Below, piece by piece: positions 6,001 to 9,000 of a stretch of DNA of 43,204 bases. Each line of letters starts with the position of its first letter. Positions within the stretch are counted from its first letter, which is position 1. Position numbers: made by a program. The DNA is from a virus, in UHGV virus genome UHGV-0007115. The stretch is one strand, 5' to 3'.

Positions 6001-9000
6001 CAGCGTTCCGCATCATGCCGCGTCCCTCTGCCCATCAAGCTGATCCGCCAGATCCCAGCGGGCGATAATTGCCATTGCCTCTCGCCGATAGGCATCCATC
6101 AGTTCTTCGAACTCAGGGCTGTCTTTAGCAGCCTCCAGTACTTCCTGACGAACGCCTTTGCCTGTTACAACGTCAAAAGTTGAGGACAGTTGATGAAGTC
6201 GGATGCTCTCAATCAGTTCAACTTGTCGGTCATATAGCTGTTCTGACAGGCGGTAGTCCTTGTCGAATGCCAGCATGATTTTTTGAAGATTTTTCTGCTG
6301 TTTAACGTTCATTATCAGCCCTCCCATATCTCGTTATCGTTGGCTACATCGCGAGCTTCTTTGCTGACGAAAGCCCACTTAATGCCTTCCTGTAAGGTGC
6401 GGAACTTCCAGCTCATGAATCCGCATGCAGTAACGCAGTACCAACCGTTGATGATTTTCCACTGCATAACTTGTTACCTCGGTCTGTTACCGTTGAGGTA
6501 ATAATTATGCGTATCTGGTTTGATGTCAATAGATATGAGTTAAAAAAATTACCCGTTAGGTAATCGAATAGGCAATAAAAAAGCCGCCATAAGGCGGCTT
6601 ACTTACTGAAAAATATGATTTTATTGTTTGTTTTTTTCGTTCTGGTTGATGACAAATTCAATGTAACTTTCGATCTTTGCCTTCTCTGTTTCAGGTAACA
6701 ATGCGTAGCGCGAGCGGTCATAGTTGATAGTCGCGGGGTCGTGCGGGTGAATCAGTAATTCATATCCGTGACGCCCAAATGCGGATGCAACATTCTCCAG
6801 GGTGGAAATGGAAACGCTGACCTCATTGTTTAACAGGCGGCTGATTGTTACCTGGGCGACGCCGGATGCGCGGTGAAGTTTTCCCTGCGTTGAAAGGTCG
6901 CGGCTTTCGCTCATCCAGCGTTCCAGGTTGTGAGCCGCCAGTTGACCAATGTCGCTTGGTCCGACAGGCTGAAAACCTTCCTGAGAAAGCGAGCGATCGA
7001 TATCAAGCCAGTTACGGGGTTTATTGGCGGCAGCTTCAATTTTTCGCGCAACCTGGTCGCCGATAACCTTCTTGCCAAGAGCCCAGCGGTTTACCAGATT
7101 TGCCTGAGTTCCAAGTTTTTCAGCCATCCGCGTCTGAACACCATTGAATTCACGGTCGATCAAGTCGTTGAGATTTTGCCTGCGGACGTCCTGGATACTT
7201 TTCATTTTCTGGAAAATCGCCTCATATCTGAATCAGAAGATGATTCAATTTAAAGCAATATTACCCAACAGGTAAATACACCTCATGGGTAACTATCCTT
7301 GATTTTTGTTACCTTATAGGTGAATATTTATTATCTGAAATAAATATCAGGCAATAGCTATGAGCGATAACGGACATTTCGATTTCAAAAAGCACTGGCT
7401 TGCACTTACTCCGGATGAGCGTGAAGCCTTCGCACAGGAAGCCGGAACGACGAGTCACTATATCCAGACTCACTTAACAGGTAAGCGCAAAATGCCAGGT
7501 AAGGTATTGATGGATGGGCTTTTTAAAGCCTGTAAATCAAGACAATGGCTGCGCTCAAAAGCAGAACTGGCATACTTCTTCTACTCATGATATCCAGCTA
7601 CAACCCTCTGTAGACCGCCACCCGGCGGTCTTTTCATATCTATTCGTACCTCAAAGGTAATAAATAACCAAATCTGGTTGATCTTTTTTTTGTGTCAGCA
7701 CAAAATGACCGTAATCCCAATACTAATAACAGGGCTTACCATGGAAATCATTACACGTATTGATGCCGCAAAGCGCGGACTTAAACGCTACTACACCGGA
7801 AAACCATGTAAGCACGGACATGACAGTGAACGCTGGGTTTACAACGGACACTGTGTTGAGTGCACCATGGAATCAAACCGTCGCATCAGGGCAGAGATTA
7901 AGCAGATCATGATTAATTCCTCCCCACAACACTCAAGCTGATAGCGGAGATTAATCATGAGCAGACATGCAACAGATTGGGCCTGGGAGACAGATCCAGG
8001 TAGCTCATCATTAAAGCTCATACTGCTCTCGATGGCTGACAGAGCCGATGAATATAACCTCTGCTACCCCAGCATAGAACGCCTCGTTAAAGACACTTGC
8101 CTGAATAAAAAAACCGTGCAGGCCGGGCTTATATCGCTCATGAAAATGGGGCTTATTTCAGATACCGGAGAGAGAAAGGGAGCGACAAAAAGAGTGCGGG
8201 TTTTCTCTCTTAATATAACCAAAAACGGGAACATTAAAGGCAACCGGGAGGGGGGCAATGAACCCGAAAACGGTAATGTTACCGAAAACGGGAATATACC
8301 CAAAAACGGGATGTTGAATGATCCCAAAAACGGGATGTTGAATGATCCCAAAAACGGGATGTTGAATGATCCCAAAAACGGGATCCAGAACCAGTCATAT
8401 AACCAGTCATTTAACCAAGAGAGGGAGAGCAGGACAAAAACCGGGGATTCTGTTCCTCATGACCCCGGCGCAAACAACGCCGTGATGAATAACTTTGTTC
8501 CTCCTGGTGGGCCAGGGCAATTAGGTAAATTTGTCATGCATGAACAATGGCAGCCATCAGATGACTTTCTTCGGAAAAGCTCATTGCAGGGAATCTACCT
8601 GGACAGTCTGCCAACGGCACAGGAACTTGCAGAGTTCAGAATTTACTGGATGGCTGAGGGTAAGGCATACCATCAGGCACAGTGGGATCAGAAGCTGGCA
8701 AGGCGCATCCAGTTCTGTAGACAGAAATCAGGTGAAGTCAGAAAGAGCCTTGACTGGCATAACACTGACTGGATAGATGAGGTGTGGGATGAAATCAACT
8801 CCAGAACTTCTTAATGAGTACGATCGCTTTCGTGGTGGGCATGACCACTCGACGGCGGTTGCTTCTGCTGACGATGAAAGGGCAAAGAAGGAGCAGGTTG
8901 CAAGAATTTTCAACGAAATGTTTGTCCAGTTACAGGCTGCATTTCCAGGCAGCATCGCTGCTATCAGCGAGCAAGGAAAGCTAAACGAATTTCGAAAACA

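What the first reader, a model, noticed from the sequence alone, without database searches (positions are those of the whole stretch)
6621..7205. Immunity repressor with two HTH domains and no autocleavage domain
The putative repressor shows two XRE-type helix-turn-helix segments and no LexA-like peptidase domain, so RecA-stimulated self-cleavage is unlikely. Together with the Bro-N antirepressor at 34302-34994 this suggests antirepressor-mediated induction. The tandem-HTH architecture could recognise the TTACC-N5-GGTAA palindrome.
Basis: inference. Interest (0 to 1): 0.4.

Follow-up and report, generated by a model that had tools for sequence, protein, structure and literature searches.

The report
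Known Rep–Ant phage immunity switch
The gene is the already-described repressor of phiV10/epsilon15-type prophages, which is not self-cleaving and is switched off by a small LexA-controlled antirepressor encoded elsewhere in the prophage, so the finding is real but ordinary.

Summary
The ORF at 6621-7205 (-) is real. It encodes a 194-aa repressor that is 100% identical to the annotated repressor of phages phiV10 and vB_EcoP_ZX5. It is 42% identical over its full length to the SPC32H Rep, whose crystal structures are solved (PDB 5D50, 5D4Z). It has two XRE-type helix-turn-helix-like bundles plus a C-terminal tail, and no S24 peptidase domain. Antirepressor-mediated induction is therefore correct in principle, but this is the published Rep/Ant system. 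The SOS-linked antirepressor is the 85-aa Ant at 36140-36397 (-). It is 88% identical to SPC32H Ant and sits just downstream of a near-consensus LexA box (36419-36434). The Bro-N protein at 34302-34994 is probably a second antirepressor, because its C-terminal 77 residues are an Ant paralogue. It has no LexA box. It lies behind a palindrome-overlapped promoter and IsrK-like and C4 antisense RNAs, as in the phage P1 immI region. In the solved homologue the second HTH-like domain is a dimerisation module and the N-terminal HTH binds DNA. TTACC-N5-GGTAA occurs 11 times exactly (0.02 expected) at promoters. The epsilon15 GenBank record already annotates it as the repressor site. Novelty is low.

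The parts
6621..7205 (-). rep: 194-aa immunity repressor. It is 100% identical to phiV10 p40 and ZX5 ORF21, and a full-length homologue of SPC32H Rep.
   Evidence: (5D50_A, E 4e-42, residues 1-190)
6990..7205 (-). Rep residues 1-72: N-terminal HTH domain, the inferred operator-reading DNA-binding domain. It is the most conserved part of the protein (53% identical to SPC32H Rep), with Q24, N36, R40 and W41 invariant.
   Evidence: DNA-binding-domain assignment taken from PMC9986798
6750..6953 (-). Rep residues 85-152: the second HTH_3-like bundle, equivalent to the middle dimerisation domain of SPC32H Rep.
   Evidence: HTH_3, 25.8 bits; 5D4Z, target TM-score 0.84, rmsd 2.2 A
6624..6749 (-). Rep residues 153-194: C-terminal tail, equivalent to the tetramerisation and Ant-binding domain (CAD/TetDloop) of SPC32H Rep.
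6581..6600 (-). Intrinsic terminator after rep.
6487..6501 (.). Operator palindrome TTACCGTTGAGGTAA. It overlaps the -10/+1 region of the leftward early promoter (TTGACA-17-AATTAT, 6529..6501).
6549..6563 (.). Operator palindrome, 62 bp from the previous one and 20 bp upstream of the -35 of the leftward promoter.
7261..7275 (.). Operator palindrome in the rep / cro-like divergent region.
7309..7323 (.). One-mismatch operator (TTACCTTATAGGTGA) inside the spacer of the rightward promoter (TTGTTA-17-TATTAT, 7306..7334).
7360..7590 (+). cro-like small regulator (76 aa, phrog_35), followed by a terminator at 7612-7631.
7646..7660 (.). One-mismatch operator after the cro-like terminator, upstream of the next rightward gene.
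9609..9623 (.). Operator palindrome, distal member of a 62-bp pair upstream of the DUF1064 gene (start 9689).
9671..9685 (.). Operator palindrome, proximal member of the pair. It overlaps the -10/+1 region and the ribosome-binding site of the gene starting at 9689.
13552..13584 (.). Two adjacent operators (13552-13566 exact; 13570-13584 one mismatch) between a terminator and the terminase small-subunit start.
16764..16778 (.). Operator palindrome upstream of the virion-gene operon. It is syntenic with epsilon15 site 2931-2947, which is annotated 'repressor'.
34215..34229 (.). Operator palindrome upstream of the leftward cargo operon 33104-34172.
34302..34994 (-). Bro-N protein (230 aa): Bro-N domain at residues 16-106 plus a C-terminal Ant-like domain at 149-225. 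Probable second antirepressor.
   Evidence: ZX5 ORF4 over-expression
35043..35130 (-). C4 antisense RNA (Rfam RF01695, 78.6 bits). Its loop CCUUUGUAG is complementary to CTACAAAGG (35003-35011) at the ribosome-binding site of the Bro-N gene.
35149..35225 (-). IsrK-like sRNA (Rfam RF01394, 74.7 bits) with its own terminator.
35262..35276 (.). Operator palindrome abutting the -10 of the promoter-like site (TTGATT-18-TATCAT, 35305..35276) that would drive IsrK-C4-Bro-N.
35355..35369 (.). Operator palindrome just upstream of the rightward ORF 35390-36118.
36140..36397 (-). ant: 85-aa antirepressor, 88% identical to SPC32H Ant (PDB 5D50 chain E).
36419..36434 (.). LexA box CTGTATATTTATACAG, starting 22 bp upstream of the ant start codon. 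It is conserved in phiV10, Tyrion, epsilon15 and SPC32H.
36474..36488 (.). Operator palindrome between ant and the tailspike gene. It is syntenic with epsilon15 site 19895-19911, which is annotated 'repressor'.
136..150 (.). One-mismatch palindrome about 45 bp upstream of the integrase gene, conserved in all five relatives compared.
39574..39588 (.). One-mismatch palindrome upstream of the lysis cassette. It is syntenic with an exact site in epsilon15 (24704).

Best explanation
The window is a complete phiV10-like (genus Uetakevirus, epsilon15-like) prophage, and 6621-7205 is its immunity repressor Rep.

Shown by sequence and structure comparison: Rep has an N-terminal HTH domain, a second HTH-like middle domain, a short C-terminal tail, and no peptidase domain.

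Inferred by homology to SPC32H Rep: the middle domain makes dimers and the tail makes tetramers. Pairs of N-terminal domains then read the palindrome TTACC-N5-GGTAA, which lies on or next to nearly every promoter of the prophage. At two loci the sites come as pairs 62 bp apart that bracket the promoter.

Inferred by homology plus a conserved LexA box: DNA damage inactivates host LexA, which derepresses the small ant gene at 36140-36397. Ant binds the C-terminal part of Rep, breaks the tetramer, and takes Rep off the DNA.

Inferred here: a second, accessory layer is the Bro-N protein at 34302-34994. Its C-terminal domain is an Ant paralogue. Its expression is gated by a Rep-type operator at its promoter and by IsrK-like and C4 antisense RNAs. 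It would therefore act after Rep has begun to fail or during superinfection, as the phage P1 immI region does, and not as the SOS sensor.
For: Identity of the element: the region is 99% identical in DNA to phiV10, and Rep is 100% identical to the phiV10 and ZX5 repressors. The whole window is collinear with phiV10, running from int to attR.

Rep family membership: full-length hit to SPC32H Rep 5D50_A at E 4e-42. The AlphaFold2 model matches 5D4Z with target TM-score 0.84. No S24 domain is found.

Domain roles and tetramer-based binding to palindromic sites come from PMC9986798 and PMC9638917.

Ant: E 1.3e-47 to 5D50_E. The LexA box and the whole ant control region are conserved from this window to SPC32H. 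The LexA-to-Ant-to-repressor logic is cited in PMC7380047.

Operators: 11 exact sites against 0.02 expected. The same palindrome sits at syntenic positions in phiV10, epsilon15, SPC32H, Tyrion and Klebsiella phage BUCT711. The epsilon15 GenBank record annotates these sites as 'protein_bind repressor'. Sites overlap promoter-like hexamers. The N-terminal domain is the best-conserved domain, with invariant residues in the predicted recognition helix.

Function: in ZX5, Rep over-expression cut holin and endolysin transcription by more than 99.9%, and Bro-N ORF4 over-expression lowered prophage titre about 1000-fold (PMC9782041).

Bro-N C-terminus: 42% identical to the window's Ant, E 9e-14 to 5D50_E, and it keeps all 22 family-invariant residues. 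IsrK and C4 RNAs lie upstream. C4 is complementary to the Bro-N ribosome-binding site. The cassette is present in phiV10 and Tyrion and absent from SPC32H, which has no Bro-N gene.
Against: No binding or induction experiment exists for this exact prophage. Rep is only 42% identical to the crystallised SPC32H Rep (32% in the middle domain), so oligomeric state and Ant contacts are extrapolated. I could not read the two primary SPC32H papers or the epsilon15 genome paper, so their content is used through citing papers, GenBank annotation and PDB sequences. The simple promoter scan did not find a consensus promoter for ant, and several promoter calls are no better than shuffles. The ZX5 over-expression data are crude and do not show direct Rep binding by the Bro-N protein. 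The palindrome could also be bound by the cro-like protein.
Confidence: 0.85

Rival explanations
1. One reading: a Rep monomer uses its two HTH domains to contact the two half-sites of the palindrome, and the Bro-N protein at 34302-34994 is the antirepressor that triggers induction.
For: Two HTH-like bundles are present. The middle one is the stronger Pfam HTH_3 match, at 25.8 bits. The Bro-N protein is annotated as an antirepressor and carries an Ant-like domain. Over-expression of its ZX5 orthologue lowers lysogeny.
Against: The two halves share no sequence similarity, with no BLASTP alignment at E<=100, whereas the half-sites are identical inverted repeats. In SPC32H Rep the middle domain is the dimerisation domain and the N-terminal domain binds DNA. 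The Bro-N gene has no LexA box and lies behind an operator, a terminator and a C4 antisense RNA. epsilon15 and SPC32H have the same type of Rep and no Bro-N gene. In phiV10 the Ant-like end of the Bro-N gene is split into a separate frame. A LexA-controlled Ant is present in every relative.
Confidence: 0.08
2. The palindrome is not the Rep operator. It would instead be the site of another phage regulator (the 76-aa cro-like protein or the late 'transcriptional regulator'), or a shared promoter element.
For: Sites lie at almost every transcription unit, including late and lysis operons. The right arm GGTAAT often runs into A/T-rich -10-like sequence. No binding data for this phage were accessible.
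Against: The epsilon15 record annotates the same sites as repressor-binding. Accessible literature describes SPC32H Rep as binding palindromic DNA sites as a tetramer. Sites cluster around rep exactly as OL/OR-type operators do. The Rep N-terminal domain and the half-site are conserved together across genera. Joint use of the sites by Rep and Cro, as in lambda, would be compatible with the main explanation.
Confidence: 0.06
3. Rep is inactivated by RecA-stimulated self-cleavage, like lambda CI or LexA, through a divergent and unrecognised protease domain.
For: None beyond the general prevalence of that mechanism.
Against: There is no S24 hit at E<=10. The whole sequence is accounted for by two helical bundles and a helix. 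The solved homologue has no protease fold. None of 86 homologue clusters carries an S24 domain.
Confidence: 0.01

Closest known systems
Rep/Ant switch of Salmonella phage SPC32H (PDB 5D4Z, 5D50; Kim & Ryu 2013, Kim et al. 2016) and its epsilon15 counterparts gp38 and gp19
   Same: The three-part Rep is the same, with a full-length alignment at E 4e-42. Ant is the same at 88% identity. The LexA box lies in front of ant in the same way, and ant sits in the same position between the end of the virion operon and the tailspike gene. The TTACC-N5-GGTAA palindromes lie at syntenic promoters.
   Different: Rep is only 42% identical overall and 32% in the middle domain. The rep/cro region here has two full sites where SPC32H has three. 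This prophage also carries the IsrK-C4-Bro-N::Ant-like cassette, which SPC32H and epsilon15 lack.
phiV10 p40 and vB_EcoP_ZX5 ORF21 repressor
   Same: The protein is 100% identical. The phiV10 record already notes 'two helix-turn-helix motifs'. ZX5 ORF21 was shown by over-expression to shut down lytic transcription.
   Different: Rep itself does not differ. The cargo between the virion genes and ant differs: the window has extra ORFs at 33104-34172 and 35390-36118.
Phage P1/P7 immI region (C4 antisense RNA, icd, ant)
   Same: A C4-family RNA is transcribed in the same direction as a downstream antirepressor gene and immediately upstream of it. It is complementary to the gene's ribosome-binding region, and the promoter is overlapped by a site for the main repressor.
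   Different: The antirepressor here is a Bro-N::Ant-like fusion, not P1 Ant. An IsrK-like RNA with a terminator precedes C4. No icd-like leader ORF was identified.
Gifsy-1 isrK-orf45-anrP locus (PMC4825925)
   Same: An IsrK-family sRNA with a leaky terminator lies upstream of an antirepressor-like gene.
   Different: In this window a C4 RNA occupies the position between IsrK and the antirepressor gene. Whether IsrK activates translation in trans here is untested.
LexA-controlled antirepressors Tum (coliphage 186) and the Gifsy antirepressors GfoA/GfhA (PMC3121763)
   Same: The logic is the same: a non-cleavable repressor is inactivated by a small protein whose gene is repressed by host LexA.
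   Different: The protein families are unrelated. Ant-like domains form a small family of their own: 59 clusters at 50% identity among 1.84 billion representative proteins.
Lambda CI / LexA-type autocleavable repressors
   Same: It has an N-terminal HTH, a role in immunity, multiple operators and cooperative oligomers.
   Different: It has no S24 peptidase domain and no RecA-dependent cleavage.

Membership tests
SPC32H-type Rep (Uetakevirus immunity repressor) | Full-length sequence homology to the crystallised Rep (PDB 5D50 chain A) | tested here: met
   phmmer E 4e-42, query residues 1-190 against chain residues 2-197; tblastn gives 42% identity to epsilon15 and SPC32H-group phages
SPC32H-type Rep (Uetakevirus immunity repressor) | Architecture: N-terminal HTH DNA-binding domain, flexible linker, middle dimerisation domain, C-terminal tetramerisation/Ant-binding tail | tested here: met
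   The AlphaFold2 model shows bundles at 4-59 and 85-151, a disordered linker at 73-83 and a helix at 164-193. Foldseek matches 5D4Z with target TM-score 0.84 and rmsd 2.2 A over 100 residues. Domain names are taken from PMC9986798.
SPC32H-type Rep (Uetakevirus immunity repressor) | Binds palindromic operators as a tetramer through N-terminal domain pairs | not testable with these tools
   Only indirect evidence is available: palindromes at promoters, 62-bp pairs, and the conserved N-terminal domain.
SPC32H-type Rep (Uetakevirus immunity repressor) | A cognate small Ant gene under a LexA box in the same genome | tested here: met
   Ant at 36140-36397 matches 5D50_E at E 1.3e-47. The LexA box is at 36419-36434. 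Ant and Rep are found in the same phage groups: 35 and 37 phage records.
LexA / lambda CI autocleavable repressors | C-terminal Peptidase_S24 domain with a Ser-Lys dyad and a cleavage site | tested here: not met
   No S24 hit in Pfam at E<=10, either on the whole protein or on the halves. None in NCBIfam. None in 86 homologue clusters.
SPC32H Ant family | A protein of about 86 aa homologous to 5D50 chain E | tested here: met
   E 1.3e-47, residues 2-85 against 3-86; 88% identity to SPC32H ant by tblastn
SPC32H Ant family | Physical binding to the Rep C-terminal domains and release of Rep from DNA | not testable with these tools
   Inferred from homology only
SPC32H Ant family (Bro-N protein, C-terminal domain) | Homology across the whole Ant domain with the family-invariant residues retained | tested here: met
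   Residues 149-225 match 5D50_E residues 3-79 at E 9e-14. All 22 invariant columns are kept. phrog_450 matches at E 3e-37.
P1-type immI (C4 RNA-controlled antirepressor) | C4 antisense RNA above the Rfam gathering score, immediately upstream of an antirepressor gene and in the same orientation | tested here: met
   RF01695 at 78.6 bits against a 45-bit threshold, at 35043-35130 (-); the Bro-N start codon is at 34994. The same arrangement is seen in phiV10 and Tyrion.
P1-type immI (C4 RNA-controlled antirepressor) | C4 single-stranded regions complementary to the downstream leader or ribosome-binding site | tested here: met
   A 9-nt match (CTACAAAGG, 35003-35011, covering the ribosome-binding site) and a 7-nt match (TTGGTCT, 35033-35039). 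Short matches of this kind were not compared with shuffled controls.
P1-type immI (C4 RNA-controlled antirepressor) | A translationally coupled leader ORF (icd-like) between C4 and ant | not tested
   No such ORF is obvious in the 48 nt between C4 and the start codon.
IsrK sRNA | Rfam covariance-model match above the gathering score, with a terminator hairpin | tested here: met
   RF01394 at 74.7 bits against a 50-bit threshold, at 35149-35225 (-). The terminator is at 35155-35168.

The most novel reading that the evidence does not exclude
This prophage group runs two Rep-directed antirepressors that share one Rep-binding module. The first is the free 85-aa Ant, released by LexA cleavage. The second is a Bro-N::Ant-like fusion whose promoter carries a Rep operator and whose translation is gated by IsrK-like and C4 antisense RNAs. 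This would give a Rep-sensitive positive-feedback or anti-immunity layer of the P1 immI type, grafted onto the SPC32H-type switch. In addition, the conserved 62-bp spacing of operator pairs would mean that one Rep tetramer clamps both sides of a promoter.
Probability: 0.4. Interest if true: 0.4.

Novelty: already known. Interest (0 to 1): 0.15.

Why it matters
The result settles the annotation of a very common E. coli prophage immunity region, present in 539 of 5426 complete genomes. It belongs to the structurally characterised SPC32H Rep/Ant switch, so no new mechanism is needed.

Only the secondary observation has some value. The Bro-N 'antirepressor' of phiV10-like phages owes its probable specificity to a C-terminal Ant paralogue, and it is wired to C4 and IsrK riboregulators and to a Rep operator. 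This gives a testable explanation of why these phages carry two antirepressors. It also suggests how modular antirepressors, with a Bro-N, AntA or Rha head and a repressor-specific tail, acquire their targets.

Tried and rejected
Papers: I tried to read the primary papers and none is held. These were Kim & Ryu 2013 (by DOI and PMC3807360), Kim et al. 2016 (PMC4983836) and Kropinski et al. 2007 (PMC2698709). Their content was taken from citing papers, GenBank features and PDB sequences.

S24 peptidase: I searched Pfam at E<=10 on the whole protein and on its halves, and NCBIfam. Nothing was found.

Tandem duplication of the two HTH domains: BLASTP between the two halves found no alignment, so this was rejected.

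LexA box upstream of the Bro-N gene: the only nearby match is a poor one-mismatch hit inside the C4 RNA (35103), and the genome-wide count of one-mismatch boxes equals chance (16 against 15.2). Direct LexA control of Bro-N was rejected.

Promoter scans: these gave few hits above the shuffle expectation and are used only as supporting geometry.

Ant fusions: the word-indexed homologue search with Ant returned only stand-alone Ants. The exhaustive profile search was needed to find the fusions.

Klebsiella phage BUCT711: it has no exact LexA box next to its ant. I did not follow this up.
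Full report
**What is at the coordinates.** The minus strand of 6621-7205 carries a 194-aa ORF with an ATG start. It is followed by an intrinsic terminator at 6581-6600. It diverges from a 76-aa cro-like gene at 7360-7590, which matches phrog_35 'transcriptional repressor' at E 8.7e-13.

The surrounding 2.2 kb is 99% identical to Escherichia phage phiV10, and the protein is 100% identical to the 'putative transcriptional repressor' of phiV10, vB_EcoP_ZX5 and a dozen other E. coli podophages. The window is collinear with the whole phiV10 genome, from the integrase side of the attachment site to the other side. The published ZX5 attachment core ATTGAGTGGGAATGATT lies at 41350-41366 (PMC9782041). 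The window is therefore an integrated Uetakevirus (epsilon15-like) prophage plus about 1.8 kb of host DNA. The same immunity region occurs in 539 of 5426 complete E. coli genomes.

**Check of the observation.** Pfam finds HTH_3 twice in the whole protein (E 1.2e-9, best stretch 106-147) and no peptidase. When the halves are scanned separately, the C-terminal half passes the HTH_3 cut-off (25.8 bits against 23). The N-terminal half gives only sub-threshold HTH hits: HTH_3 at E 0.015 and YdaS_toxin at E 5e-4. Nothing resembling Peptidase_S24 appears even at E<=10. NCBIfam agrees, and none of 86 homologue clusters from Enterobacterales carries an S24 domain.

An AlphaFold2 model built on 31 homologues (mean pLDDT 74) shows two helical bundles at 4-59 and 85-151, a disordered linker at 73-83 and a long C-terminal helix at 164-193. 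Foldseek places it first on PDB 5D50 and 5D4Z, then on XRE-family repressors. It is also already written in the phiV10 GenBank note for this protein, 'two helix-turn-helix motifs (PF01381)'.

**What the protein is.** A search of all PDB sequences gives a full-length match to the repressor of Salmonella phage SPC32H: 5D50 chain A at E 4e-42 over residues 1-190, and 5D4Z, which is Rep(92-198), at E 4e-20. I could not read the primary papers, but accessible papers summarise them:
- SPC32H Rep has an N-terminal DNA-binding domain, a middle dimerisation domain, and a C-terminal domain that makes tetramers and binds the antirepressor Ant (PMC9986798).
- Rep binds DNA as a tetramer. The N-terminal pairs that read the palindromic sites come from different dimers. 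A tetrameric Ant binds two Rep dimers and breaks the tetramer (PMC9638917).

The 'second HTH' of the finding therefore corresponds to the dimerisation domain, not to a second DNA-reading head. Two results here fit that reading. First, the two halves have no detectable sequence similarity to each other, although the operator half-sites are identical inverted repeats. Second, the N-terminal domain is the best-conserved part of the family: 53% identity to SPC32H Rep against 32% for the middle domain. It has invariant Q24, N36, R40 and W41 in the predicted HTH helices. This matches the fact that all these phages share the same half-site.

**The palindrome.** TTACC-N5-GGTAA occurs 11 times exactly where 0.02 is expected. 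There are five more sites with one mismatch, against about 1.5 expected. The sites are not random in position:
- Two sites flank the leftward early promoter. TTGACA-17-AATTAT lies at 6529..6501, with operators at 6487-6501 and 6549-6563.
- Two lie between rep and the cro-like gene, one of them inside the spacer of the rightward promoter.
- One follows the cro-like terminator.
- Two flank the promoter region of the gene starting at 9689.
- Two precede the terminase genes.
- The rest precede the virion operon, the cargo operon, the Bro-N region, ORF 35390, the ant/tailspike intergenic region, the lysis cassette and int.

The same palindrome, with different spacers, sits at the syntenic places in phiV10, epsilon15, SPC32H, Enterobacter phage Tyrion and Klebsiella phage BUCT711, with 8-11 exact copies in each. 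The epsilon15 RefSeq record already annotates seven of them, as ATTACC-N5-GGTAAT, 'protein_bind: repressor, lysogeny'. The link between repressor and palindrome is therefore plausible but not new.

One detail may be worth noting. At the leftward promoter and at the 9689 promoter the two sites are exactly 62 bp apart centre to centre. That spacing (62-63 bp) recurs at both loci in all five relatives. It is about six helical turns, with the -35 and -10 hexamers between the sites. This is what one would expect if one Rep tetramer holds both sites. It is an inference only.

**How induction works.** The decisive gene is elsewhere. At 36140-36397 (-) there is an 85-aa ORF that matches SPC32H Ant (5D50 chain E) at E 1.3e-47 and 88% identity. 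A perfect CTGT-N8-ACAG box lies 22 bp upstream of its start codon, at 36419-36434; read on the ant strand it is TACTGTATAAATATACAGTT. The whole control region, comprising the palindrome, a conserved TGCTGGATAG block, the LexA box and the ribosome-binding site, aligns from this window to SPC32H.

The published logic for this family is that LexA self-cleavage allows Ant synthesis and Ant inactivates the repressor by protein-protein contact (Kim & Ryu 2013 as cited in PMC7380047). Ant and Rep occur in the same set of phages: 35 and 37 records, from the same genera. 'No autocleavage, antirepressor-mediated induction' is thus correct, and it is the known mechanism.

**The Bro-N protein.** It is real: Bro-N domain at residues 16-106, E 1.8e-13. 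Its residues 149-225 are a paralogue of Ant, 42% identical to the window's Ant and E 9e-14 to 5D50_E over nearly the whole chain. All 22 family-invariant residues are retained.

An exhaustive profile search shows that Ant-like domains are a small family: 59 clusters among 1.84 billion representatives. Most are free-standing proteins of about 86 aa. A few are C-terminal fusions to Bro-N, AntA or Phage_pRha heads. This is the usual modular build of phage antirepressors. In ZX5, whose Rep is identical and whose ORF4 is 80.6% identical to this Bro-N protein, ORF4 over-expression lowered prophage titre from 1e9 to 1e6, and Rep over-expression removed more than 99.9% of holin and endolysin transcripts (PMC9782041).

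The regulation of the Bro-N gene is not SOS-type. No LexA box lies upstream. A promoter-like site at 35305..35276 abuts the palindrome at 35262-35276. Two Rfam families then match above threshold: an IsrK-like sRNA at 35149-35225 with its own terminator, and a C4 antisense RNA at 35043-35130. The C4 loop CCUUUGUAG is complementary to CTACAAAGG over the ribosome-binding site of the Bro-N gene, and AGACCAA is complementary to TTGGTCT a little upstream. The cassette is present in phiV10 and Tyrion and absent from SPC32H, which has no Bro-N gene. In phiV10 itself the Ant-like end of the gene is split off into a separate frame.

This arrangement resembles two known loci. One is the phage P1 immI region, where a C4 RNA controls ant (established knowledge and the Rfam family description). 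The other is the Gifsy-1 isrK-orf45-anrP locus, where IsrK read-through and trans action control translation of an antirepressor-like gene (PMC4825925). My reading, which is inferred, is that the Bro-N::Ant-like protein is an accessory, Rep-sensitive second antirepressor, serving commitment or anti-immunity, and not the trigger.

**Comparison and verdict.** The protein passes every membership test for the SPC32H-type Rep family that can be run in silico. It fails the defining test for LexA/CI-type autocleavable repressors. The identical protein is already annotated as a repressor and has been tested by over-expression. A homologue has crystal structures alone and with its antirepressor. The operator palindrome is annotated in epsilon15.

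The finding is therefore a correct reading of a known system, with one wrong mechanistic guess (tandem-HTH recognition) and one missed key gene (ant with its LexA box). What may not have been spelled out before is the Ant-paralogue nature of the Bro-N C-terminus, its C4/IsrK/operator wiring, and the conserved 62-bp operator phasing. These are modest, testable additions and not a new kind of system.

Noticed in passing
window 35043-35225 (-): An IsrK-like sRNA (RF01394, 74.7 bits) and a C4 antisense RNA (RF01695, 78.6 bits) lie in tandem between a palindrome-overlapped promoter and the Bro-N gene. The C4 loop is complementary to the Bro-N ribosome-binding site. The cassette is present in phiV10 and Tyrion and absent from SPC32H.
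   Followed up: partly
window 6487/6549 and 9609/9671; also L001-L005: Operator palindromes come in pairs exactly 62 bp apart centre to centre, bracketing the -35/-10 hexamers. The same 62-63 bp spacing is kept at both loci in phiV10, epsilon15, SPC32H, Tyrion and Klebsiella phage BUCT711. It is suggestive of one tetramer bridging two sites.
   Followed up: partly
window 33104-34229 (-): A leftward three-ORF cargo operon (phrog_5933, phrog_1651, phrog_3117) has no counterpart in the blastn comparison with phiV10 and epsilon15. The middle ORF has a sub-threshold YafO-toxin match (E 9.5e-4). An exact Rep-type palindrome lies at 34215, just upstream.
   Followed up: no
window 35390-36118 (+): A 242-aa ORF (phrog_6762) with C-terminal Cys-rich, Stc1/endonuclease VII-like motifs is inserted between ant and the IsrK promoter relative to phiV10. 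A palindrome at 35355-35369 lies directly upstream.
   Followed up: no
window 8299-8384 (also 8262-8311): There are 3.6 perfect copies of a 24-bp repeat (CCCAAAAACGGGATGTTGAATGAT) inside the replication-initiator gene 7957-8814. They encode the repeated peptide PKNGMLND and look like iterons of a replication origin inside the gene.
   Followed up: partly
window 16365-16441 (-): A tRNA-Arg (anticodon TCT) lies between the terminase genes and the virion operon. It is also present in phiV10 and SPC32H.
   Followed up: no
window 41350-41366 and 41367-43204: The attachment core ATTGAGTGGGAATGATT, as published for ZX5 at the 3' end of guaA, marks the right prophage end. Host genes follow. The window starts just inside the left end.
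   Followed up: partly
window 13506-13590; L001 41-105: The start annotated for the phiV10 terminase small subunit (L001 position 41) lies upstream of a terminator-like hairpin and the two operator palindromes. The real start is probably the ATGATG at about 13585 in the window.
   Followed up: no
window 136-150: A one-mismatch palindrome (TTACCTTAAAGGTAT) lies about 45 bp upstream of the integrase gene and is conserved in all five relatives. It hints that int is also under Rep control.
   Followed up: no
L004 (Klebsiella phage BUCT711) 17054-17314: The ant homologue of this phage has palindromes on both sides but no exact CTGT-N8-ACAG box next to it. The only exact box in that genome is at position 384.
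   Followed up: no
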